Positions 6,852 to 43,106 of a DNA stretch of 64,000 bases are shown here, in pieces. Origin of the DNA: the human T2T-CHM13v2.0 reference genome, Homo sapiens; the NCBI RefSeq assembly GCF_009914755.1, contig NC_060947.1, one strand, 5' to 3'. Position numbers and translations under genes: made by a program. Every line of letters begins with the position of its first letter. The stretch's first letter is position 1. The notes beneath the pieces were generated by a model. The model was not told the DNA's origin. It worked only from the letters and a program-made list of their open reading frames with translations, and did not search any database.

Positions 6852-7180
6852 TTTTCAGGGAGGTATTTTAAAAAGCTTTGAAATCACCCAAAGAAGCCCT
6901 TTTCTTGTAAACACGCCTAAGTTCTATGATCACCTACAAATTACACTTACCCTTTTCTTGTGGTAAACACTCCATGAGTTCTATGATCACCTGCAAATTA
7001 CACTTAGTTGCTGACTGCCCCCCATCCATGCAGGCCTTATGCTGACATTATCGAGGCTCACGCTTTATCGGAAAAGGAAACTACAGGAAATGAATCATGA
7101 ATCATTATTTTTAAAGAGCAACTCCATCACAGCTTGCTTATCATTATTAATAAATGAAGAAAAGAGCTAAACATGTGAAC
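6852..7180 (+). repeat. Left arm of a long inverted duplication (with an internal ~53 bp tandem duplication at ~6897-7007)
   Basis: Reverse complement of 8731-9006, with only a few mismatches across the 6980-7160 core. Confidence 0.95.
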
Positions 7181-8171: not shown

Positions 8172-8730
8172 ATACGAGCAACTAGCAATTTGAGCAAGTA
8201 TAGCCAGCTTATTTTCCCTGTACCATTCCATTTGAGATAATGTGCGCTTCTAAGGATATATGCTTTTATTGTCATGATGGAACTGAAGTGGATGAAAGTG
8301 CCTCTAGCTGCTCTGTATCTAGTTATTCAGTGGATCCCCAAATCCGGTTATAAAACCTATAAGATTTTATTTGTTCATATTTCCCAAATGAAAAAAAGAT
8401 TTAGTTTTATTTTCTTTTTGTCTCCTCAAACAAACAAACAAAAGCTAAGCTAGATTTGACACAAAAGTATCTAGGTTCTTCTCCCCATCGCACCCCCAAC
8501 CCCCAAGAAACTTACGCTGAAAAGAGAGAATAATAGAGATTAAATGTCAGCTGTGTCAATCTATAATTCAAAGTGATAAAATGAAAAGAGACCCCCAATA
8601 TCACCCTGGCTCAGGTGATATAGCAGGGTAAGTGGCAAGCCCTTATCTAGGCATCTATTCCAAGACAGGCTACTGTGAGGTGATTTCAAAATTGCTGGCT
8701 CTAAACAGAGACAAAGATCTTAGGGGCTTT

Positions 8731-9006
8731 GTTCACATGTTTTACCTCTTTCTTCATTTATTAATAATGATAAGCAAGCTGTGATGGAGTTGCTCTTTAA
8801 AAATAATGATTCATGATTCATTTCCTGTAGTTTCCTTTTCTGATAAAGCGTGAGCCTCGATAATGTCAGCATAAGGCCTGCGTGGATGGGGGGCAGTCGG
8901 CAACTAAGTGTAATTTGCAGGTGATCATCACTACTTAGAAGTGTTTACCACAAGAAAAGGGCTCATTTGGGTGATTTCAAAGCTTTTTAAAATACCCCCC
9001 TGGAAG
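8731..9006 (-). repeat. Right arm of the long inverted duplication
   Basis: Reverse complement of 6852-7180, without the internal tandem copy. Confidence 0.95.
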
Positions 9007-12000
9007 AGACCAGAGGTAATTGTTTTCTTCTTTGATGGGTCTAGACTTTGGGCAGATAAGAGAATTTCAGAGAAGAACTTCATCCAGTGCTTTGAGAGAG
9101 ACAAAGAATTGAGAGAAAAGAGTGGGGGAGGTCAGAGAAATCTTGACGCTTCTTATTCAGTTCAGCATGTCGAAGTGTCACATTTTGGGAGTATTAGTTT
9201 TTGCGACCCAGCATTCCCCTGTCTGAAACTTACCAAGAAGTTTCACACCTAGAGTTTGTGGCTATGGAGAAAAAATTGAGCCAGTAGCTGAATGGCAAAG
9301 GATCCCACCAAACCAGTCTCTCATTTTTGGGACTAGGCCAGTTCAACTAAACAGCTGTGCCTCATTTTAGAAGACGGTGTTGCAGATGGCTCTCAAAGCT
9401 AGGCCACTATATTATGTAGGAAAACAGATCTTTAATAAGAGGCATCTCTATGGAAATAGAAGGGAAAGAAAGCCAATGTCTGAAGCAGTCTGCAAGCTAG
9501 TCCTTCTAAAGTTTGGAGGGCAGCCAGTTGAGAAGACCAGTGGCAACCTGACAGATTTTCCTAGATTGTAATTTGCGTGTAAAGTGTGTCCAAATATGAG
9601 CTATTGCAATGATTTTTCTCCACAGCCAATTTGACTAGCCTCAGCTTGCAGGGCTTCAGGAAAAAGGCATTTTTAATTTCAGTAAGTCCAAGTCAGAAAA
9701 AAAATGAAAGGAAAATTTGGAAAGATTACTTTGAAGACTTGTCACCAGGAAACAATTCAAGATTCAGCCCAAATTGCAAGCAGATAATAAAAACTCAAAA
9801 ACAATGAACAAGGCAAGAATCTAAGAACAGATGTACTATGGTTTTCTTCTGAAACATAATTTTCTCCCTCCAGTACTCCATTTTTCTAAAGATAAAACAC
9901 GGTAGGACGAATCTATTTGCAAAATAAGCTTTAGTCTTATTATACTTGGTTTGATTATTTGTATAAAATACAGCAAGAATAGTGATTGGCTATACAGGCT
10001 CTTTTAAAGTTAGCTTTGGTGGGACTTTTTCGTAAGAAATCTCAGATTTGACTTTTAAAATCCAGTCAAGGACAAGAAACCAAGGCAAGGATTTGCCATC
10101 AGGCTGTACCTATAATACCTGTACAAATTGGGAAAATCCTTCTATTCCTAAGGTCCCCAGAATATCTTGAGTTTCCTGGGCCTGTGAGAGAGTAACATTC
10201 TTTACTTTCCACAAGGTTAGGAACCTTATAAAATAACTGCATAGACAAGGTAACAGGCCAGTCTTTATCCAAGTCTATTGGCTTAGTAAAGTCAATCCCA
10301 ATCATTTCAAGCAGTTTGATCACAGATGAAAACATGCTATTCTAGTCAAAGCCTTGGTAAAATAATCAGTATCTCCAATTGTGTCCTGTTACCAAAGAAA
10401 ACAGATTCTTGTTAAACTTATGCAAATAACTATTTTGCCATAAAATAAGAATTCTCGTGAATAGTTTCTGAATTCTGGAGAAATCAGGGTAGAGAGAAAG
10501 GTATGGGTTTACATTTTTCTTACCAAAGTATACTTAACCCAATTGCTGTAAGCTATAAATAACTTAAAAAAAAATTTTCTTAACTCTGGAAAATAAAACA
10601 TACAAATAATAAGTAATGTTTCAAACAAAAAGATTATTAAAAAATCTTTTCAGTCCTCTATCGGTTCGGTTCCATGTAATTAATTTTTATTTAGCTTGAT
10701 GTTGGCTTAGTAATCTTCATAAACCCATCAGTTTTCTTTTTTTAATTAGAGTTTTGGAAGGTTTTACCTAGTTCAATAATATAATCTCCAGAATTATCAG
10801 AAACCTATATTCAAGAGTACTTGTTAGGGTTCTTTCCATGAATTTCACTGAAGACACAACACTTCAGGATTTGCAAAATGCTTTTAGAAAAAAAAAAAAC
10901 AGAAACAACTTACTTCTTATACTAAAACATATCAGATTTTTAGAAATCTCATACAATTTTGAAACACATTTCAATAATATATCTATACAAATATAACCAA
11001 AGAATACTAAAGTTTTGTGAACTTGAAAAGTATTTGGGCTAGTTTCTTGGCACTCATTTATTTATAATTCAATTTGGTACAATAAGGACAATATACAAAC
11101 AGACATCTATACACACGTATGCATAAAAATACAGACACAAATAAAGACCTTAAAGCTTTGATTTTAAAATTTTAGTTATGAAACAGGTAAAACTCACTAG
11201 TTTAAAAAGACAGTTTAATTAAATTGTGCCTCTGTAAAAGGAACAAGTTAGTTTGTTTGTCCCACACTGCCAAAGCCCTTACTAAGTTTTAGAGAAAACA
11301 GGATAGCAAATTTCCATTTCAAAGCACAGAGACAGAATTTATGTTTTTCTTAAGAATGAGCTTGGGTTTGTTAGTTAGAGAAGGTTAAAAATGCCGAGGT
11401 GACACAAAATTATAGAAATTTACCACAGTATTTTCTAAGGAGATTGATTGTATTTAGATAGGTAGTTTCTAATTTAGTCTCTGTTTTCTAACTGGACCAC
11501 TGAGCTTAGGGTGGAGCTCATCAATGAATAATAGGGCTGATGAAGCATTTGCAGTTTTCAGGGCCTAATATTTAAATATGAGAAAAGCAGGTGCAGCTGG
11601 AAGGCAGGGCATCTAGATCTCCAGAAATCAATAATTCTGTTTTTACACTGAATCTCAGCTCCCACAAAATCGGGCAATATCACAGGACAAGGCTGCACAA
11701 GACTTCCACAATGCATCTTGCTACAAGGATGCTCCAACACCAATCAGCCCTCTCTGTGATAAGTCCACCCCCATAGGAGTCTTATCCCTTGGTGCTGAGT
11801 GTTTCCACAGCCTCCAAGTATTCAAACTGTGCCTTTCTTAAATAAACTTGCAAAGAAACAAATAGACTCCTACAGTAATAACCACTCATTGAAACCACTG
11901 TTAGCCATCTCAAACACTGTAGCCCTCATCAGTGACACAGAAGCCATACCATATACAAAGGTCAAGTACTTTCTCACAGTACAAAATATCCCCTGGTATC

Positions 12001-16930: not shown

Positions 16931-17794
16931 GCTAGTTCCCAGGCTTCTTCCTAGAAAGGAATATCTTCATGGGAAAATGTGGTTCTGTCCTGACACATGA
17001 ACACCATGAACACCATGTCTCCAGTGTATATGAGCTAGTCTGTGGGGGAGGTTATTTGAAACCAATCTGAGTCCTACAAAGTTGTTTGAGCTGCACCCAT
17101 CAGAACTCATATATGTAGCCAGTGAAAAGAAACCATTTGGAAAATCAATGAACTTTCCTGTCATGCAGCTTTTCTCTCCATGGCTCACTCCCCATTCATG
17201 TGGACAATTTAATTCAACCTGTAACAAAATATTGCTATAGCAAACAGGAACACCTTTATATTCCCATTTTCTGGGAATAAAAGATTTGAATTTTGACACA
17301 GAATCATCTCAAATTTCAGAATTTGAAGAAGTTGGAGTCTCCTCAGTAAAGCTGAGGCTACAAAAATACTATTGGACTTTTGAAAAATGCTCTGAACATC
17401 TAAACAAAATAAAAGGGCCATTTGGGGATTCAGAATAAGTTTATCTATGTGAAACAGCTTTATGCCAAGAAAAGTTAACAGTTAAAAAGTCTTATTTGCA
17501 TTTCAATAAGATTTCTTGAAATTCTACACCCATTGGAAAAAAAATCATATAACATTAGGAAAGACAGCATTCAAATAAAAACTAAGATTACTAAATTTAA
17601 ACATGTAATGGAAGCAGTAAAGAGTAGATTGAAAAATGCAAAAAAAAAAGTTCTCTCAGAACAATTAGGAAAATGACGACTGAAGGGATGAAGCAATAAA
17701 GCTTATAGATAAAAATATGTGCATGTTTTTCTAATATATTTTCCAAAAAAATCAGATGATGCAGACTAAATGTCATAAGAATTTCAGGAAAACA

Positions 17795-22192: not shown

Positions 22193-24440
22193 AGTCTACC
22201 TAAAAGGAAGAAGCTTAGGTGAAATTAATGTAAGCCGATAGTTTATTTGGTCCAAGCTTTAGGATTGCAGCCCAGGAGCATAGATTCAAGTTGCCCTGAA
22301 TAAATACTCCAATTAGCAGCAGTTACAAGTGCATTTTTAAGGGAAAAAAGTAGGTGACTCAACAATTATTGAGTTGTTTACCAAGAATTTACATTAAAAT
22401 AACATAAATTATTAATTGGCTATACATTGTTTCTTTGTATCACAAGTTCCAGGCACATGAAGATAATGAGTGAGGCAGCTAATGGGGACCAAATTACTTC
22501 AAACAATTTCCCCAAAGTGAGATAGCAAGGGATGGGGCATGATTTAGGTCCCATACACTTATATCTCTGGGCCTGCATACCTCATATAGCTCAGACTACT
22601 CTGACCTATTTTTCTTTTTCGTTTTCCCCCTGTTGATCAAAAATTTTCCCATGAAGCATTGATGATTGATCGCTGAATAGGTTAGAATGATAGACATTCT
22701 TCATCCCTCAGCATCGGGAAAGCTCATTCCTGGAAAGGCTCAGTCAAGTCACTGATTTATATAATGGTCATCACTTTTTGAATCATCTCTAGCCTTTGGA
22801 ATTTCATGCTTTCAGTTTTCTTGTAAGAAGGAAAACAATGAGAGATACATAGTAAAACCTATTCCGTTGGGGATTCAGTCCACATTTTAGGAATATAATT
22901 TAAATGTTTTTAAAATGGTCAGAGCTGGAATCTAACAACAGGTTTTCTATAATTTTTTTCAGAACGTAATTTTTGTCTCCCAAGTTCCCCATTTCTATGG
23001 AAGATAAATCTTAGTAATCTTAGTAGGGCAAATTTACTAGTAAAATAAGTTTTAATATTATACTTGGCCTATTTGCATTAAATGAAACAAGAATAGTGAT
23101 TGGCCACATAGGTTCTTTTAAGTTAGCTTTGCTGGAACTTTCATAAGAAATTTCAAATTAGATCTTTAAAAACCTTGAGGTTAGAAGCCAAGTCAAGGAT
23201 TCACCATTAGATTGTGTCTGCAATTAGGTGAATTATTATCTTCTCAAGGTCTCCATATAACCTTGAGTTTCCCAGGCCTGTCAGAAAGTGACATTTTTTT
23301 ACTTACTGCAAGTTCAGAAACCTTGAAAACTATCCATGTAGACAAGGTACCAGGCCAGTCTTTCTAAGCAGTTTTATTGGCTTTATAAAGTCAACCTAAA
23401 TTCCTCACAGCAGTCTGGATATGTCTGAAAATATGCCATTCCACTCAAAGCTTTGATAAAATAACTAGTTTCTCCAATAGTGTTCTGTTACAAAAGAAAA
23501 CAGATTCATACTGAACTTATGCAAGTAAGTAGATTCACATAAAATAAGAATGCTGATGAATAGTTTAAAAATTTTAGAGAAATCAGAGAAAAAGGCAAAT
23601 GTTTCCATTTTGTTCACAAAGGTATATTTTTTCCAATTACTGCAAGCTATAAGTAGCTCAAAAGAAAGAAAAATTTCTGAGTCTGGAAAACAAAACATAA
23701 AAAGAATCAGCAATGTTTCAAACAAAAAGTCATAAAAATATTTTTAGCCCCCTATCAGTTCAGTCTCATGTAATTAATTCTTCTGTTTGATGTTGGGTTA
23801 CAAAATCTTTATGAACTCATTGGTTTATTAGAATTCTGAAAGTTTTTGCTTAGTCCAATTATATGATCTCCAAAGTTATCAGAAACCTGTATTCAAGGGT
23901 ACTTGTCATAGTCCTTTTCTATGATTTTTCTTGAAGAAAAAGTAAGTTTTGGAATGTAGCCAATTGTAAACAATGTTTTGAGAAAGAATTAAAGCAATAA
24001 TTGCCTTTGGATGGCAAAATTTAGAGTAGCCATGGTTAAAGACACAATTGACAAGAAAACTTGGTTATTTGTGTGGCATACAACAATTTAACATAATAAC
24101 CATAATTATATCTGACATACATTAAGACATACCAGAATTTTAGGAATCTTGTGTAATTTTATAACACATATTAATAACCTAACCAGACTCAAAGAATATT
24201 CAAACACCATTATTTTATTTGACAATGCTTCCCATATAATTTTAATATACTAAATAAACCTAATATGTCTTTCTTGGTATTCCAGTGGTTTCTTCCAGAA
24301 GAAAACTGAATTTTAGAATTTGAAATTGAATTTTTGGAAGAATGTCAAATATTAAAGATTTAAAACACTTGATCAAAATAGAATTCCAGGTCACTGTAAA
24401 ATAATAGTCATTAATTTAGCCAAAGTGAAAATTCAAAATT

Positions 24441-25991: not shown

Positions 25992-26497
25992 CATGTCACA
26001 TGGCATTAGACTCATTTTCTGAGTCTAATGACTCAGACATTTTATAATTATCTTTAATTTAACATAACATTAAGTTTCTGAAAAAGATTTTTGAAACTCT
26101 GAAAAGTTTGTTTATAAACTTTTATCTTAACAATTATTTATTTTATTTATTCTTAGAAATTATGCTTGAATAGTTCATTAAACAAAGCTAGCCATCATCT
26201 TAAGTTTTTTCTTTGCTAATCATTTCTATAGCTTGTGAAACCCTAAAGTTAAACAGGTAAGTATTTTGTTGATAAGAAGACACAGCTACTTTTATTAAAC
26301 CAATAAACTAGTATTATTTACCAAAGATGTACCCACATCATGTGAACTAAAAGGCATTTGAGTTAGTTTCTATTTTTCTGATTTAATATTCAATTTAAGT
26401 GCTTGTTGGTTCTTTAAGCCAATTAATTAGAGCTCTTTCATACATTTTGGTAGTGAAATATCACATATGAATGACGCATTTAAACATATAGCTATAA

Positions 26498-26820
<323 letters not shown>

Positions 26821-27197: not shown

Positions 27198-28957
27198 TAG
27201 ACTAACAACCTTTTGATTACCTGTCCCATTACCCTAAACAACTGTTAGGTAGGGAACCCTAAATTTGCATTTCTAAAGACATGACTCTTAGATGAAAATT
27301 TATATCCCAAAGGCACTGAACTTAGCTCTAACACCATTATTTGCTGATACAAAAAGGGCAAGTCAAGACAAGATTACCAGAAAATGTATCTAAACAAAGG
27401 TACAAATTGTTATGTAAACTTTAAGCCAATGTCTTTCCCATTATAAAAGTTTCTAGTGGCTTGAGTATAAGAAGATACCCTTACAAGTGGAGAGTTCCTT
27501 TATAGATTTTCATTTCTTTTATAGATGTTCAAAATAGCCAGTGAAATGCCAGCAAATCATATTTTGGAGACCAAAGTACTTAGATGATCTTTTAAACTTA
27601 GCTTTTTTCTTAATTCCATTAATGATTTAAGGGTGAAGCCCTTCAATGAATAGGGCAAAGAAAGGATTTGCAGTTTTCAGGACCTGATATTGAAATATGA
27701 GAAGAGACACAGCTGGAAGGCAGAGCATCTGGATATTTTAAAGTCAAGAGTCTCACTTTTACATTAAATCTGTGTTCCCAAAACAGAGAAACACTATGAG
27801 ACTGGGCCATACAAGCTTCTGCATTGGATCTCACTACAAAGACATTTCCCTAAGTGTTTAAACTGTGCTTTTCTTATCTAAATGCACAACAAACCAAGCA
27901 GCCCTCTGTGGTAATAACCATTAATTATAAACAACTTCTATTAGTGACCTCCAAAACTGTGGCTCTCATCAGTGACTCATCAGCCGTAACACACGTAAAA
28001 ATCAAGTTCTGTCTCAATACAAAGTATTCTCTGGTACCCTCAAAAGCCAAAGAGATCAAGTAATGCAATACAAAGGATTGAAGAGTTTTAGACCTGAGAA
28101 GAGCCTGTCTGTGACTCTTCAGACTCCACAGAAAGGCAGAAGTTCCCCAAAATGGGTGAATGGTGCCTTTTTCTATGTTCCTTAAGGGGTCTGAGTCATT
28201 AGACATCTTCTCTAGATTTCTTAATGTGGTATCAAAAATGGGAAAAGGAAAGAGGAACAGAAGAGGAAGGAAATAGAACAGCAAGTCTTAAAGGAGTCAA
28301 TTTGGGGAGATTTTAAGCTTTCTAAAAGGCTAAATGAGTTTTACATTTTTCTAAGGAAATATCATTCCAACCAGATAGAAAGCAAAGAGAGGGGTTTAAG
28401 TTGACTGGAAAAAAATTTTTAATAACAGGATCCAAAAGAAGAAGAAGAAAAAAGCAGAAAGACCTTTCCCCCCAAAAAATTATGGCTTAAATATGAGCTT
28501 TTAATTAAGCTGACTTCTGTCCCTACAAAAGAATCTTTTAATATCTCTTCTTAGGAGATTTCAGCCAGGAAAAACATAAGGTAGGTCTCCCATTAAGTTT
28601 GTCTGGTTATCCTTTTTTGCATGCAAATGAATTATTTTAGATATTTCAAAGGATTCCTATTTTGGCTACTGCTGCTCATGACTGTACTGGGTTGGGTGGG
28701 TCCACTTTCCTAGACATTTACAAGAGGATGCCCAATAAATATTATTGAAGCACCCTCATGGTCTGGGATGACACCCAGGGTTCTTGGTCTCATGGCCAAG
28801 GAAATCAAGAATGCAGAGACACCAAGGGTTAGGTTTAGAGCAGAAATTTAATAGAAGAAAGAGAGAGAACAGCTCTCTGCTTCAGGGAGGAATTCCAGAA
28901 AAAGGGTTGCCATTTTTACAGTTGAATGCAAAGCCTTTTATATATAGATAGATAGAT

Positions 28958-29229
28958 AGATGTACCCACATTATGTGAACTAAAAGGCATTTGAGTTAGT
29001 TTCTATTTTTCTGATTAAATATTTAATTTAAGTGTCTGTGGGGGAGGTTATTTGAAACCAATCTCAGTCCTACAAAGTTGTTTGAACTGCACCCATCAGA
29101 ACTCATATATGAGTTTTTTGTTTTTTCTGAGCTGCAGCCAGAGATTGCTGATTGGATTACAGAAACAATGTCATATAATATTATATATTATATATATTAT
29201 ATATTAAATAAACATGTTTAGGTACATGA
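28958..29229 (+). other. Chain of templated insertions copied from 26325-26401, 17038-17115, 30284-30335 and (inverted) 31601-31619
   Basis: Manual alignment gives 74/77, 76/78, 51/52 and 19/19 identities. Confidence 0.93.
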
Positions 29230-29390
29230 ATATACATGTTTAGGTACATGAATATACATGTATATATACACATATATACATATACATGTTTAGGTACATG
29301 AATATACATGTATATACATGAGATATATATATATATATAAAATATATATATATATTATATATATATATATATAATATATATATATATATA

Positions 29391-29679
29391 TTTGAGATGG
29401 AGTCTCACTCTGTTGCCCAGGCTGGAGTGTAGTGGCATGATCTTTGGTCACTGAAACCTCTGTCTCTGGGTTCAAGCTATTCTCCTGCCTCAGCCTCCCA
29501 AGTAACTGGGATTACAGGTGTGCACCACCATGCCCAGCTAATTTTTTTTTTGTATTATTAGTAGAGATGGGGTTTCACCATGTTGGCCAGACTGGTCCTG
29601 TACTCCTGACCTCAAGTGATCCACCCGCCTCAGCCTCCCAAAGTGCTGGGATTATAGGCATGAGCCACCTCACCTGGCC
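29391..29679 (-). mobile_element. Alu (AluS-like) in the MER61 3' LTR; tail converted to (AT)n-rich repeats (29172-29390)
   Basis: TSD ATGCAAAG(C/G)CTTTTATA at 28926-28942 and 29685-29701. The uninterrupted site is visible in the 5' LTR at ~36816-36832. Confidence 0.93.
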
Positions 29680-32600
29680 AATGCATGCAAAGGCTTTTAT
29701 AGGAAACTGATGAAGGCTGGGTGTGTCATTTTAATCAGGTATGAATTTCTGGTAGCTCTACTCCATCTTCCTAATGCGCATGTGGGCCCTTAGCTTGCAT
29801 TACTCCATATTGCTCTGTTCCCCTTACTGCGCGTGTGTCAGGGGACAGAATTTTCCATTGTGAGCATGTCTGGGCAAGACACCTAGGTAGCCTTACTTAT
29901 CTGTGTGGCTGTGGGCATGTCTTAGGTAAGCCCCCCTGTGCAAGTTCCTCTATCTATCCCTGCAGGCTGTTCTTTTGTTTGAAAGGATTCAACCGAGGAC
30001 TGACCAGATTTTTTCCTCTCTCCTCTCTCATTTCCCCCCTCAGGAGTGGAGACCCTGCTTTTAGGGGGAATGGGACAATGATTCTTTTAGCTACTTCCTG
30101 TTGGACAGGGATGCTGTGTAGGAGAACAGCATTAGGATTCCTCCTAGGGGCAATCTAAGGGTCCTTGGAAGGAAGGCACGCCCATGTATGGTTTCATTTG
30201 CATCACCATTTGGAGCAGGGCAGGATTTGCAGGCTTATTGCCCAAAACTAGAGTATTGATCCAGATTTCTACATGACCAATCCTTTTTTGTTTTTTCTGA
30301 GCTGCAGCCAGAGATTGCTGATTGGTTTACAGAAATAAGCAGGTTAGTTTAAAACATAGGCAAGAACTTGAAAACGACTATTGAGATTAGAATTTAATAC
30401 CCAGCATGTAATAAATTTTGAAAAGTATTTTTTCTCTCTCCAGTCCTCATTTTTGTTAAAAACAAATCATGATTGGACTGAGTTGTTTGCAAAATAAACT
30501 ATAGTCTTATACTTGGCCTGATTATTTTCATAAAGTACAGAAAGAATAATTATTTTTACATAGGTTTTTAAAACTGGCTTTGATAGAACTCTGTTCCACA
30601 AGGACTCTCAGACAGGACTTTTTAAAGTGAAGCCCAGCCATGGGTTTGGAACCTCAAATACCTGAGTTGGGTGAATTCCTCTCTTCGTGAAGCCCCAAGA
30701 ACATGGGGTTCCTGGGCCTGTTAGAAATTGATATTCTTGACACATCACAGATCAGGAACCCTGTACTGGGACTGTGTAGGCAAGTTATGAGGCCAGTTTT
30801 CCCAAGGGGCTTTTATTGGCTCTGCAAGTTAAGCTTGATTCTTTAAAGGAAAACACACCCTTCCAGTCAAAGTCTTGCTAAAATAACCAGTTTCTCCAAT
30901 TGTGTCCTTTTGCAAAAGAAAATTGATTTTTATTGCACTGATGAAAACAACTATATTGCCATAAATTAAGAATACTTACAACTAGCTTCCAAATTACAGA
31001 GGAGCCAGGCAGAGAGAAACAAATATGCTCCAAATTTTGTTCACAAGAGTATACCTTACTCAATTGTTAAAAGCTGTAGATAGCTTAAAAGAAAAGTTTT
31101 CTTGATTCTGAAGAACAAAACAAAGATTAGCAATGTTTTAAACAAAGAGTGAAAAAGAACTACTTCAGACTTCTATTAGTTTAGTCCATGCAGTTAACTC
31201 CGGTTTGATATTCATGAACATTTCAGGCTTCATAATTCCTGTATGTTTTCCTTTATTCACCTGTCACAATTTCCAAAGTTATCAGAAACCTGCGTTTTAG
31301 AGCACCTGTACAAGTCCTATAATAATTGTAAATCATTCTTTGAAAAGGATGATTTATAATTAAGACAACAATTATCTGTGAATGATGAAATGTCCAGGGT
31401 AGTTACAGTTAAAAACACAATTGAAAAAGAAATTTGGTTATTTCTGTGGTTTACAATAGCTTAACATAATAACTTTAATTATGATTGATAGCATATACTC
31501 AAACATTAGAATTGTATACATCCCATACAATTTTGGAACATTTATTAATATTATTCGCTAAAATATAAACTGAAGAAGATTAAACATCATTCTGGCAATC
31601 TCATGTACCTAAACATGTTAAATAATCCTGTTTACCTCTCTTCTGGATGCTTCAGGGGCCCTCTGTGGCATCCACAAGCTAGGGGTTAGGAAAGACAATT
31701 GTGAAGCTAAAGTTTGATTTTTGGAAGCCTGCTAAGTGTTAAAGGCTTAAAACACTTGATATTATGAAATACAATACCAGATTATCATAAGTTATTTATT
31801 TTGCCAAAATTATGACTAAAAATTTGAAAACGTGGCAAAAACCTTTGTTCATTAAGAGGGAAGACTTAGCTTTCCAGTTTGTTTCCTGTTTTCTCATTCT
31901 TCTCCTTGGCAGTTTATCCACAAGGCAAATGAAAATTGTTCATTATCCTTCACTATTATATGAAGATTTTGTACAAGGAAGAAAAAGCCAAGTTTTGCCC
32001 TTACATTGGTTTCAAAACAATTCTTTATTCCTAGGCAAGATTTACATTTCCATGCCTTTTTATAATCTTTTACCACAAAAACATTTTACTGTTCCTACAC
32101 ACCTTACATGTATATCTATTTTCAGTAGTCTCATTTACATGTTATAATGGTAACTCTTAGTAATTTTTAACTTTAATGTAAAACATGGTAAGTTGTTTTA
32201 ATTATGTACTAGGTCCAGATAAAGTCTGACATTTTTCAGCATAGTTACGGGTATGGTTAATTTTTTTATGTCTCCAGGCCTTATCAAGTTGTAAAGCAGG
32301 CAGTTTATGACCTTAAAACATTTAGCAAACCTAGTATGTGACTTACATGATTTAGACCACCTATTTACATTTTGATGACATTTGCATTTGACCAATTATC
32401 TTTGAAACATTTTTATTTCTTAAAGATTAAAGTCATGTGAATTAAAAGACATTAAAAGTTTTATCTTTTCTTTAAAAAAATTTGATTTAAGTGCTTAATT
32501 TTCCGTAAGCCAATCAGTTAGAGCTCTTTTTATAGACATCACACACAACACATATATAACTACACATACAAACAGAAGAAAACTTGGTTGTCATAAGATT

Positions 32601-36646: not shown

Positions 36647-36992
36647 CAATGAAGTGATCTCATTGACTGGGATGACACCCACAGTTCTTAGTCTCATGGC
36701 CAAGGAGATCAAGGACATAGAGGTTTAGAGCAGAAATTTAATAGGAGAAAGACAGAGAACAGCTCTCTGCTACAGAGAGGGGTCCTGTAAAAAGGGTTGC
36801 CATTTTTGTGATTGAATGCGAAGGCTTTTATAGGAAAGTGATGAGGGCTTGGCATCTCATTTGCATCAGGCACGAATTTGTGGTAGCTCTACCCTGTCTT
36901 CCTAATGTACATGTGGACCCTTATTCTAAGTTACTCCATATTGCTTTGTTCCCCTTACTGTGCATGTGTCAGGGGATGGAATTTTCCATTGC

Positions 36993-37064
36993 AGGCATGT
37001 CTGGGCAAGTCACCTGTGTAGCCTTTCTTATCTGTGTGGCTGTGGGCATGTCTTAAGCAAGCTC
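36993..37064. promoter_or_regulatory. Two candidate p53 response elements in the MER61 5' LTR
   Basis: AGGCATGTCT-GGGCAAGTCA (36993-37012; 19/20 to RRRCWWGYYY x2, no spacer) and GGGCATGTCT-t-AAGCAAGCTC (37044-37064; 20/20, 1-bp spacer). Confidence 0.75.
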
Positions 37065-37873
37065 CCCTGTGCAACTTCCCTTATCTGTGCCTGCAGGCTG
37101 TTCTTTTGTTTGAAAGGATTCAATCTAGGACCCACCCTAACTGCCTGCCTGACCAGGTTTTTTCCTTTCTCCTCTCTCATTATTACATAAATCCAGCTGG
37201 TATTTCTAAAAAGAACACTCAGATTTAGAAGATTGATTTCCTGTAATTTAGAAACTTTTCCAAAGTGATTAAGGCTGGGAATGCGTTTAGGGTCTAAGTG
37301 TGATGTGTCTCAGACGGTCTCTAACTGACAGGTGGCAGCAGAGTGCTCAAGGTGTGGGGGACCAGATCCTCATATTATCCCCATCTGGAATAGCAAAAGG
37401 GGGCACACTCTTTAGTTAAGAACTAACAGGAATTGGTCACAAATGAAAGGCTGTCTAAAGTTTTAAGTGATAGAAAACAGCTGCAATCTTAAAAGCATGA
37501 TATGTAAAATGAAACCACCAGTGCCTAAGTGCCAGTTTTTTACCTTAATCTCTGCTGTGAGACAGAGGTAGAAAAACCTTGACCCAAACCTCTGGTCCTG
37601 AGACATAGGCAGAAAAAAATGCAGTTCTCTGCAGAGCTCTTTACCTGAATCTCCTGTCCAAAGACGGAGATTGAATCTTCCACTCTTAATGAGAAACAAG
37701 GGTTTAAAAAACAGCCCAAATGAAGTTTAGACCTTCAATCAGAGTGGGAGGTGGTCCAATTTCAGGAGAACTCCCTCAATACACTCCATAGGACTTCTGA
37801 AGACAGAGAATTTGTGCTGGTAACAAGCACCGCTTTCAGAGAGAAACACCAGGTGGTTGCAGGGAGTCACTCT

Positions 37874-42843: not shown

Positions 42844-43106
42844 TATTGGCAAGGATATGTAGTAATTGCATTTCTCATATATTTCTGGTGGGGTACATAT
42901 TTGTAAAATTATTGTAAAACTATTTAGTATCATTTACTAGATTTGAACATATGCATGTCCTATTACCCAGCACTTTTATTGGCAAGGATGTGTAGTAATT
43001 TCATTTCTCATATATTTCTGGTGGGGCACATATTTGTAAAATTATTGTAAAACTATTTAGCATCATTTATTATATTTGAACATATGTATGTCTTATTACC
43101 CAGCAC
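42844..43106 (+). repeat. Tandem duplication, 2 x ~130 bp (period 133)
   Basis: 42844-42973 vs 42977-43106, 8 mismatches. Confidence 0.95.

What the first reader, a model, noticed from the sequence alone, without database searches (positions are those of the whole stretch)
28943..29390. Chain of templated insertions stitched from four nearby loci inside an Alu tail
Seen: between the left TSD (28926-28942) and the body of a minus-strand Alu lie back-to-back copies of other parts of this window. 28958-29034 = 26325-26401 (74/77). 29034-29111 = 17038-17115 (76/78; donor 12 kb away, 1-bp junction overlap). 29114-29165 = 30284-30335 (51/52). 29211-29229 = reverse complement of 31601-31619 (19/19), and this last motif recurs three times. 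The chain is embedded in (TA)n/(GATA)n and is absent from the sister 5' LTR. Established: serial short templated insertions are a signature of template-switching repair (polymerase-theta end joining, MMBIR/FoSTeS), and (AT)n tracts are break-prone. Inference: a germline break in the (AT)n-converted Alu tail, or during Alu integration, was repaired by repeated invasion of physically nearby DNA. This leaves a fossil record of local contacts. The 6 mismatches in 207 bp suggest an old event rather than an assembly join.
Basis: partly seen in the sequence, partly recalled or inferred. Interest (0 to 1): 0.8.

Follow-up and report, generated by a model that had tools for sequence, protein, structure and literature searches.

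The report
Patchwork of local DNA copies in Alu tail
A 211-base stretch in the tail of an old Alu repeat on the human X chromosome is stitched from short copies of three nearby sequences, an ancient scar of error-prone DNA repair of a kind already known, with no sign of a function.

Summary
Between the target-site duplication and the body of a minus-strand Alu lie three head-to-tail direct copies of window sequences: 28958-29034 = 26325-26401 (74/77), 29034-29111 = 17038-17115 (76/78), and 29114-29168 = 30284-30338 (53/55, 3 nt longer than reported). A 19-mer (29211-29229) equals the reverse complement of 31601-31619 and was later tandemly triplicated.

In the whole T2T genome the local sites are the best matches. 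Fragment 2 has no other match. Fragments 1 and 3 share private variants with their local donors against 28 family copies each. The donors sit inside longer old repeat copies, so the direction is donor to chain.

The 7 mismatches in 209 bp fall on both lineages, so this is an old event and not an assembly join. It looks younger than the Alu (Fisher p = 0.017, rough). Junctions show 4, 1 and 0 nt of microhomology, the last with a 2-nt filler. The adjoining AT-rich tail folds into strong hairpins (z = -4.1).

Best reading: a germline break or fork collapse in the hairpin-prone tail, repaired by iterative template switching onto DNA within 12 kb. Capture of free fragments cannot be excluded. This is a new example of a known mutational class. 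No primate orthologue or second human assembly could be checked.

The parts
28926..28942 (+). Left copy of the Alu target-site duplication (17 nt). The first 14 nt end in TTTT, so the nick may have been at TTTT/AT.
   Evidence: 16/17 identical to 29685-29701. A single copy is present in the sister repeat at 36816-36832.
28943..28957 (+). Short TA/(GATA)n linker between the TSD and the chain. The ATAG array spans 28940-28961.
   Evidence: TRF: period 4, 5.5 copies. The last AGAT overlaps the first 4 nt of fragment 1.
28958..29034 (+). Fragment 1: direct copy of 26325-26401 (74/77), 2.6 kb upstream.
   Evidence: Best genome-wide match: 96% over all 77 nt, against at most 93% over partial lengths elsewhere. 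Shares C at 28969 (family A in 9 of 9 covering copies) and T at 29016 (family T in 1 of 28) with the local donor.
29034..29111 (+). Fragment 2: direct copy of 17038-17115 (76/78), 11.9 kb upstream. Shares 1 nt (G) with fragment 1.
   Evidence: The only other match in the 3.1-Gb genome is the local donor (2 of 2 candidates scored, at max E = 10).
29112..29113 (+). 2-nt filler AG. Together with the end of fragment 2 and the first TT of fragment 3 it completes a perfect 16-nt palindrome at 29100-29115.
   Evidence: The chance that AG fits the palindrome is 1/16, so this is only suggestive of an inverted (snap-back or sister-strand) switch.
29114..29168 (+). Fragment 3: direct copy of 30284-30338 (53/55), 1.1 kb downstream.
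   Evidence: Best genome-wide match: 96% against at most 92% elsewhere. Shares four states with the donor that are in the minority among 28 family copies: 29123 (4/28), 29151 (4/28), 29158 (7/28) and 29163 (3/28).
29169..29210 (+). AT-only spacer (95% A+T). No donor was found.
   Evidence: There are no exact matches of 14 nt or more elsewhere in the window. The genome pattern search gave 17 hits against 8 for the control, none convincing.
29211..29229 (+). Fragment 4: 19-mer equal to the reverse complement of 31601-31619 (2.4 kb downstream). Its 18-nt core is repeated at 29234-29251 and 29284-29301, within the tandem array 29207-29327.
   Evidence: There are 5 exact copies in the genome: the chain, the local site and 3 distant members of the same repeat family. 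One distant copy matches 20/20.
29323..29390 (.). (TA)n tract that forms a long, near-perfect hairpin. It is part of the 29166-29395 AT-rich block.
   Evidence: TRF. DNA fold of 29166-29395 gives -40.6 kcal/mol, z = -4.1, with 0 of 200 shuffles folding as well. One search shows self-complementary hits.
29391..29679 (-). Alu body (dimeric 7SL-derived SINE). Its 3' end faces the AT-rich block.
   Evidence: two Metazoa_SRP matches on the minus strand (58.3 and 46.9 bits, below the gathering score of 70, as I would expect of an Alu (own expectation, not tested)); 12 further copies in the window.
29680..29684 (+). 5 nt (AATGC) between the Alu 5' end and the right TSD. Either a 4-nt duplication of the TSD start or filler.
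   Evidence: read directly.
29685..29701 (+). Right copy of the target-site duplication.
26325..26401 (+). Donor 1, inside a longer old repeat copy.
   Evidence: all 28 family alignments overlap the piece, and 26 of 28 extend past both of its borders (about 26027-26543).
17038..17115 (+). Donor 2, a sequence unique in the genome.
30284..30338 (+). Donor 3, inside a repeat copy that begins at 30219.
   Evidence: 28 of 28 family alignments span the piece. 25 of 28 start exactly at 30219, and the alignments run to 30700-30738 (query end 30738).
31601..31619 (-). Probable donor 4, inside a repeat copy 78-87% identical to three distant copies.
36816..36832 (+). Empty-site equivalent in the second copy of the flanking repeat.

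Best explanation
An Alu inserted by the usual L1-driven route into an older repeat, and its A-tail decayed into a long, hairpin-forming AT-rich microsatellite. Later, very roughly 10-35 million years ago, a germline double-strand break or collapsed replication fork arose in that tail close to its outer end. The broken or stalled 3' end was extended by copying short stretches of DNA from the same chromosome neighbourhood. It jumped from template to template with almost no homology. The order of templates was 2.6 kb upstream (77 nt), 11.9 kb upstream (78 nt), possibly a 2-4 nt turn-back at a palindrome, then 1.1 kb downstream (55 nt), before rejoining the AT-rich tract. A fourth, inverted 19-nt piece from 2.4 kb downstream belongs either to the same event or to a second one, and was later amplified by tandem duplication. 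The donors stayed intact, so this is copy-and-paste. The result is a neutral scar with no evident function.

Shown: the copies, their local origin, the direction of copying, the junction anatomy, the old age and the hairpin potential. Inferred: the break, its cause, and the replicative FoSTeS/MMBIR-type pathway.
For: Copies and junctions:
- The matches are 74/77, 76/78, 53/55 and 19/19.
- The junctions show 4 nt (AGAT), 1 nt (G) and 0 nt plus an AG filler.

Local origin:
- Fragment 2 matches only itself and its donor in the whole genome.
- Fragments 1 and 3 match their local donors best and share private variants with them.
- No other locus in the genome holds two of the fragments (40 of 233 candidates scored).

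Direction of copying:
- Donors 1 and 3 are embedded in longer family-wide alignments.

A single event:
- The three pieces abut with 0-2 nt between them.
- Their divergences are alike: 3/77, 2/78 and 2/55.

Old and real:
- There are 7 mismatches in 209 bp, none at a CpG site.
- 2 are chain-specific, 3 donor-specific and 2 unpolarised.

Later than the Alu:
- The Alu differs at 13 of 253 flagged non-CpG sites from the majority of 13 window Alus.
- The chain has 7 changes in 420 lineage-sites, giving Fisher p = 0.017.

Fragile context:
- The fold of 29166-29395 has z = -4.1, with a hairpin of about 70 nt of (TA)n.

Known mechanism:
- Iterative template switches with templated insertions and junctions of 0-6 bp homology are described for germline rearrangements (PMC5120786, passages).

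Rarity here:
- 3 of the 5 high-identity pairs in the window belong to this spot.
Against: - No pre-event allele was seen, because no primate orthologue or second human assembly could be searched. The break position, any deletion and the order of events are therefore inferred.
- Blunt and 1-nt junctions with a 2-nt filler fit end joining of free fragments equally well.
- The chain lies only 15-18 nt from the TSD, at the very point where reverse transcription of the Alu began. That would also fit an integration-time event.
- The age comparison rests on a crude majority string from 13 mixed-subfamily Alus that includes the Alu itself, with only 11 CpG pairs flagged. It could be biased either way.
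- The genome searches scored only 40 of 100 candidates (fragment 1) and 40 of 129 (fragment 3). A better distant match is unlikely but not strictly excluded.
Confidence: 0.55

Rival explanations
1. Fragment capture. A double-strand break in the AT-rich tail was sealed by end joining that ligated in several free DNA or cDNA pieces derived from the neighbourhood. These could be resection or replication by-products, or reverse-transcribed local RNA, as in class 2 templated sequence insertions.
For: - The junctions have 0-4 nt of microhomology and a 2-nt filler.
- The donors are retained.
- Class 2 TSIPs are described as patches with microhomology and non-templated nucleotides whose donor sites stay intact (PMC5110952, passages).
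Against: [quoted passage not shown] Here all four donors lie within 12 kb.
- Three direct-orientation pieces in a row would need three or four ligations.
- No gene is annotated across the donors (hub table), so an RNA source is unsupported.
Confidence: 0.22
2. Integration-time event. At the L1 endonuclease nick, the free 3' end, or the L1 reverse transcriptase itself, first copied local DNA or nascent RNA templates and only then engaged the Alu RNA. On this reading the chain and the Alu are the same age.
For: - The chain lies 15-18 nt from the TSD, at the priming end of the Alu.
- The target reads TTTT/AT, close to the TTTT/A preference quoted in PMC5110952.
- All three main pieces have the same orientation, as expected for one growing strand.
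Against: - The chain appears younger than the Alu: 7/420 against 13/253, p = 0.017.
- 225 nt of AT-rich sequence, including a further templated piece, lies between the chain and the Alu body.
- I know of no described L1/Alu product with foreign pieces between the tail and the TSD. This is recall. The three searches listed none, but they were not aimed at that question.
Confidence: 0.1
3. Several independent insertions into the same fragile tail at different times.
For: - The AT-rich tail is hairpin-prone.
- Fragment 4 is separated from fragment 3 by 42 nt of AT-only sequence and is inverted, so at least that piece could be a second event.
Against: - Fragments 1-3 abut directly with 0-2 nt between them and no AT-repeat remnants.
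- Their divergences are similar: 3.9%, 2.6% and 3.6%.
Confidence: 0.08
4. Assembly artefact or chance resemblance.
For: AT-rich repeats are hard to assemble. No second assembly or read set was available here.
Against: - E-values are 1e-20 to 1e-33.
- The mismatches are polarised onto both the chain and the donors. A chimeric join of reads would be identical to its sources.
- The whole structure sits inside a clean TSD pair.
Confidence: 0.02

Closest known systems
Iterative template switching (FoSTeS/MMBIR) with templated insertions at breakpoint junctions of germline complex rearrangements
   Same: - Several consecutive pieces are copied from other loci and the donors are retained.
- The junctions have 0-4 nt of microhomology or small fillers.
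- The templates lie nearby on the same chromosome.
- Repeats and secondary-structure-prone DNA sit at the site (PMC5120786, passages).
   Different: - There is no large copy-number change or rearrangement. The only product is a 211-bp patchwork.
- It is an old event in the reference sequence, not a clinical de novo one.
- It lies inside an Alu tail microsatellite.
[quoted passage not shown]
   Same: - Templated filler at a repaired break and minimal microhomology.
- A possible inverse switch at a short palindrome. [quoted passage not shown]
   Different: In that data set the templates lay within about 20 bp of the break and were typically under 10 bp in total. Here the pieces are 55-78 nt, from 1.1-11.9 kb away.
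Class 2 templated sequence insertion polymorphisms (TSIPs)
   Same: A patch of copied sequence at a presumed double-strand break, with the donor intact, end-joining-like junctions and no TSD or poly(A) of its own (PMC5110952, passages).
   Different: [quoted passage not shown]
- This one is a chain of four pieces, all from within 12 kb, with no annotated transcript over the donors.
- Whether it is polymorphic is unknown.
L1/Alu 3' transduction and chimeric retrotranscripts
   Same: Extra non-element sequence lies inside the TSDs of a retrotransposon insertion.
   Different: - Transduced sequence, as I recall it, is one contiguous stretch from downstream of the source element and ends in its own poly(A).
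- Here there are three non-collinear local excerpts with no terminal poly(A), and they appear younger than the Alu.

Membership tests
Alu SINE inserted by L1 target-primed reverse transcription | Dimeric 7SL-derived body of about 280-300 nt | tested here: met
   two Metazoa_SRP matches on the minus strand, at 29562-29678 and 29392-29538; 12 other copies in the window at 76-84% identity.
Alu SINE inserted by L1 target-primed reverse transcription | Flanking target-site duplication and an empty site elsewhere | tested here: met
   a 17-nt TSD at 16/17. The paralogous repeat copy has the sequence once, at 36816-36832.
Alu SINE inserted by L1 target-primed reverse transcription | T-rich endonuclease target (TTTT/A) at the tail end | tested here: met
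   the target reads CTTTT/ATAGG. The consensus is quoted from PMC5110952.
Alu SINE inserted by L1 target-primed reverse transcription | Poly(A) tail abutting the TSD | tested here: not met
   there is no A/T homopolymer. Its place is taken by 448 nt of AT-rich repeats plus the chain, read here as later decay and insertion.
Iterative template switching (FoSTeS/MMBIR-type) insertion | Inserted pieces are copies of other loci whose originals remain | tested here: met
Iterative template switching (FoSTeS/MMBIR-type) insertion | Two or more consecutive templates in one junction | tested here: met
   three abutting pieces, with a possible fourth.
Iterative template switching (FoSTeS/MMBIR-type) insertion | Microhomology, blunt ends or short fillers at each switch | tested here: met
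   4 nt, 1 nt, and 0 nt plus a 2-nt filler. The fourth junction cannot be read because it runs into AT repeats.
Iterative template switching (FoSTeS/MMBIR-type) insertion | Replicative synthesis (dependence on break-induced replication factors), as opposed to ligation of fragments | not testable with these tools
   Sequence alone cannot separate copying from capture.
Polymerase-theta end joining templated insertion | Short templates close to the break (about 20 bp away, typically under 10 bp; PMC11541566) | tested here: not met
   pieces of 55-78 nt, copied from 1.1-11.9 kb away.
Class 2 TSIP | [quoted passage not shown] | tested here: not met
   all donors lie within 12 kb. No gene is annotated over them (hub table).
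Class 2 TSIP | Insertion polymorphic among humans | not testable with these tools
   Only one human assembly is held.
3' transduction | One contiguous source segment ending in its own poly(A) next to the TSD (definition recalled) | tested here: not met
   three non-collinear sources. The TSD-proximal end is TA/(GATA)n.

The most novel reading that the evidence does not exclude
Hairpin-forming (TA)n tracts that grow out of Alu tails may be recurrent germline break sites. Their repair may sample DNA over a kilobase range in cis (here 1-12 kb) in 50-80-nt bites. If so, patchworks like this one form a distinct, minable class of fixed 'local patchwork insertions' in complete genomes, and their donor maps would record which sequences lay close together in ancestral germ-cell chromatin. 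A bolder variant is that the copying enzyme was the L1 reverse transcriptase hopping over nascent local RNA before it engaged the Alu RNA.
Probability: 0.12. Interest if true: 0.6.

Novelty: new member of a known kind. Interest (0 to 1): 0.35.

Why it matters
This is a clean, datable example in the reference genome of multi-template copy-and-paste repair. It has four donors within 12 kb, readable junctions, and outgroup sequences that polarise the later mutations. Single cases like this do not change what is known about template switching. They do show that complete genomes hold such scars inside AT-rich microsatellites, where short-read surveys search only 100-500 bp around a break (PMC8421209; PMC11541566). 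A systematic count could measure how often kilobase-range templates are used in the germline. No gene, exon or RefSeq functional element overlaps 28943-29390 (hub table), so no phenotypic effect is expected.

Tried and rejected
- Spliced or linear RNA origin. The donor order 26.3 kb, 17.0 kb, 30.3 kb is not collinear on either strand, and I saw no consistent splice-site dinucleotides at the donor borders (read). Rejected as the simple explanation.
- Collapsed local duplication. Rejected for the same reason: the order is not collinear.
- Repeat-consensus origin. Fragments 1 and 3 belong to repeat families, but the chain carries the local donors' private variants, and fragment 2 is unique in the genome.
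- A fifth donor for the spacer 29169-29210. Exact-word search in the window, a 22-mer genome pattern search allowing up to 2 mismatches (17 hits against 8 for the control) and follow-up alignment gave only AT-rich chance matches.
- ERV/LTR identity of the flanking repeat. Of 139 stop-free pieces, 137 had no Pfam hit. The other 2 had only chance-level hits (E about 0.007, below the cut-offs) to unrelated families. An earlier set of 12 ORFs gave none. The label stays untested.
- miRNA-like hits in the ACATGT/TA repeat are far below the gathering scores and were set aside as low-complexity hairpins.
The within-window control is the only background.
- Earlier findings of the scan were not open.
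- Primate orthologues, other human assemblies and long reads: no tool here holds them.
Full report
**1. Observation**

- 28958-29034 = 26325-26401, 74/77
- 29034-29111 = 17038-17115, 76/78
- 29114-29165 = 30284-30335, 51/52
- 29211-29229 = reverse complement of 31601-31619, 19/19

A blastn self-comparison of 28850-29450 against the window gives E = 1.5e-31, 3.6e-33 and 1.1e-20 for the long pieces and 7.4e-4 for the 19-mer. With low-complexity filtering, the whole 64-kb window contains only five non-self pairs at 92% identity or more. Three of them converge on this 211-bp spot. The other two are an inverted repeat at 6950-7180/8731-8961 and a tandem duplication near 42.9 kb. Chance is therefore excluded.

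**2. Anatomy**

The + strand reads, in order:
- Left TSD copy, 28926-28942.
- A 15-nt TA/(GATA)n linker.
- Fragment 1, 28958-29034.
- Fragment 2, 29034-29111, sharing one G with fragment 1.
- A 2-nt filler, AG.
- Fragment 3, 29114-29168.
- A 42-nt AT-only spacer.
- A tandem array (29207-29327, period 22/50) that carries the 19-mer once and its 18-nt core twice more.
- A (TA)n tract, 29323-29390.
- The Alu body on the minus strand, 29391-29679.
- 5 nt, AATGC.
- Right TSD copy, 29685-29701, matching the left copy at 16/17.

The Alu label rests on two Metazoa_SRP matches on the minus strand (58.3 and 46.9 bits, below the gathering score of 70, as I would expect of an Alu) and on 12 other copies in the window.

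The Alu sits in a repeat of about 530 bp (28755-28942 plus 29690-30032). A second copy of that repeat at 36659-37181, about 80-82% identical, runs straight through a single copy of the TSD sequence at 36816-36832. That is an empty-site equivalent.

No repeat library is at hand. 12 ORFs and 139 stop-free pieces from 9.5-13, 16-18.5, 22-27.5 and 30-36.7 kb gave no retroelement Pfam domain. Two chance-level hits to unrelated families were all that appeared.

**3. Are the local sites the true sources?**

The window's own 3.1-Gb assembly could be searched.
- *Fragment 2:* only two places match, even at max E = 10. They are the fragment itself and 17038-17115 at 97% (2 of 2 candidates scored).
- *Fragment 1:* the local site matches at 96% over all 77 nt. 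The next best matches are 91% over 69 nt and at most 93% over 57 nt (40 of 100 candidates scored).
- *Fragment 3:* the local site matches at 96% over 55 nt. The next best is 92% over 51 nt (40 of 129 scored).
- *All three together:* a search with the whole 298-nt stretch found no other locus holding two of the pieces (40 of 233 scored).

Fragments 1 and 3 therefore belong to interspersed repeat families, and I compared each with 28 other family copies.
- Fragment 1 and its donor share C at 28969 (family A in 9 of 9 covering copies) and T at 29016 (family T in 1 of 28).
- Fragment 3 and its donor share states held by a minority of the family at 29123 (4/28), 29151 (4/28), 29158 (7/28) and 29163 (3/28).

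The family copies also align to the window well beyond the borders of the pieces. For donor 1, 26 of 28 extend past both borders. For donor 3, 28 of 28 span it, 25 of them starting at a common repeat end at 30219. The donors are thus ordinary parts of older repeat copies and the chain holds excerpts. The direction is donor to chain.

The 19-mer is less secure. It occurs exactly five times in the genome: in the chain, at the local site and in three distant members of the same family. One of these, on C6, matches 20/20. Only the closeness of the local copy (2.4 kb) argues for it.

**4. Age**

Over the 209 chain positions of fragments 1-3 there are 7 mismatches (3.3%; Poisson 95% interval 1.3-6.9%, computed over 210 sites). 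None is at a CpG site (read). With the repeat families as outgroup:
- 2 are changes in the chain: 28972, where the family is split C 9 / T 4, and 29156.
- 3 are changes in the donors: 29017, 29024 and 29166.
- The 2 in fragment 2 cannot be polarised.

Changes on both lineages are what an old duplication leaves and what an assembly chimera would not. From recalled figures, 3.3% is of the order of human-orangutan to human-macaque divergence on the X, roughly 10-35 million years. No call supports that conversion.

As a rough comparison, the Alu differs from a majority string of 13 window Alus at 22 of 275 sites, and at 13 of 253 outside flagged CpGs. The chain has 7 changes in 420 lineage-sites, giving Fisher p = 0.017. 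The comparison is crude:
- The Alus are of mixed subfamilies.
- The Alu under test is itself included in the majority string.
- Only 11 CpG pairs were flagged.

It suggests that the chain is several-fold younger than the Alu.

**5. Junctions**

From:
- *Linker into fragment 1:* AGAT is shared between the (GATA)n repeat and the donor, 4 nt.
- *Fragment 1 into 2:* one shared G.
- *Fragment 2 into 3:* no overlap, with AG between the pieces.
- *Fragment 3 into the AT tract:* not readable.

The end of fragment 2, the AG and the first TT of fragment 3 form a perfect 16-nt palindrome at 29100-29115. After copying the 8-nt palindrome at the end of donor 2, the growing end may have switched to the opposite strand for 2-4 nt. 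It may then have used TT as microhomology for donor 3. Only the AG is unexplained otherwise, so the chance fit is 1/16 and this is a suggestion, not a result. Fragment 1 also contains a 14-nt perfect palindrome at 29014-29027.

**6. Context of the break**

The AT-rich block 29166-29395 folds as single-stranded DNA to -40.6 kcal/mol, against -28.9 +/- 2.9 for 200 shuffles (z = -4.1, none as stable). It includes a hairpin of about 70 nt made of the (TA)n tract. AT-rich palindromes are named among the structures underlying recurrent rearrangements in the abstract of PMC4195946 (search listing). That long (TA)n tracts are cleaved as cruciforms in some cell types is my recall, not something I read here.

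**7. Mechanism**

The best fit is a break or collapsed fork in the hairpin-prone tail, after the Alu had inserted. It was repaired by a 3' end that copied three or four short stretches from DNA within 12 kb, switching templates with 0-4 nt of homology, and then rejoined the AT tract.

This is the signature of iterative template switching (FoSTeS/MMBIR). Passages of PMC5120786 describe microhomologies, blunt ends, small insertions and templated insertions from several loci at germline junctions. They hold that iterative switches are what distinguishes this mechanism.

Polymerase-theta end joining in its usual form fits less well. In PMC11541566 (passages) templates lay within about 20 bp of the break and were typically under 10 bp. 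That paper does note rare inverse insertions at short palindromes and suspects multi-template copying.

Three rivals remain open:
- *Capture of free DNA or cDNA patches by end joining,* as in class 2 TSIPs (PMC5110952, passages), cannot be excluded from sequence alone. What speaks against it is that all donors are local and in series.
- *An integration-time origin* is suggested by the position of the chain, 15-18 nt from the TSD at the priming end. It is disfavoured by the age comparison and by the 225 nt of AT-rich sequence between the chain and the Alu body.
- *Serial independent insertions* are unlikely for fragments 1-3, which abut directly and have like divergences. They are possible for fragment 4.

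**8. Comparison with what is known, and novelty**

This is a new example of a known mutational class, not a new kind.

The three literature searches (20, 15 and 15 papers listed of 48, 50 and 62 found) showed nothing on this locus or on chains of local pieces in Alu tails. They were not exhaustive, and most subscription literature is not held, so I do not claim it is unpublished. Tools in print search for templates only 100 bp (PMC8421209, one passage) or 500 bp (PMC11541566) from a junction, so kilobase-range donors like these would be missed.

No annotated gene or RefSeq functional element overlaps the insert (hub table), so no function is expected.

**9. What could not be done**

- No primate orthologues, other human assemblies or long reads are held by any tool here, so the pre-event allele was not seen.
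- I did not look at the supplementary files of the papers cited. Junction tables there may hold comparable cases.

Noticed in passing
window 6950-7180 and 8731-8961: Inverted repeat, 94.85% identical over 233 bp, with arms about 1.55 kb apart. The right arm lies inside the RefSeq 'enhancer' 8515-9430.
   Followed up: no
window 42844-42973 and 42977-43106: Tandem duplication of 130 bp at 93.8% identity.
   Followed up: no
window 29233-29323: The ACATGT/TA-rich tandem array gives sub-threshold matches on both strands to the mir-297, mir-466, mir-3149 and mir-1277 models (28-42 bits against gathering scores of 81-100). These look like low-complexity hairpins, not evidence of a miRNA gene.
   Followed up: partly
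window 29014-29027 and 29100-29115: Perfect palindromes of 14 nt (inside fragment 1) and 16 nt (spanning the fragment 2/3 junction). The present-day donor of fragment 1 no longer has the 14-nt palindrome, because of its own later changes at the sites corresponding to 29017 and 29024.
   Followed up: partly
window 30219: The repeat copy that holds donor 3 has a sharp end here. It is shared by 25 of 28 family alignments, so an element terminus lies 187 bp beyond the end of the flanking repeat at 30032.
   Followed up: no
window 28755-30032 and 36659-37181, and the 6.6 kb between: The two copies of the flanking repeat are about 80-82% identical. Nothing between them, nor in three other stretches sampled, gave a retroelement protein domain. 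Reading them as the two LTRs of one provirus is therefore unverified.
   Followed up: partly
window 29680-29684: Five bases (AATGC) lie between the Alu 5' end and the right TSD. They look like a 4-nt duplication of the TSD start or like 5' filler.
   Followed up: no
window 32433-32529 vs 26338-26438; 30430-31550 vs 9860-10683 and 23224-24176: Old (65-75% identical) collinear similarities link the regions around donors 1 and 3 with two other stretches of the window. Several decayed copies of the same long repeat families therefore lie side by side here.
   Followed up: no
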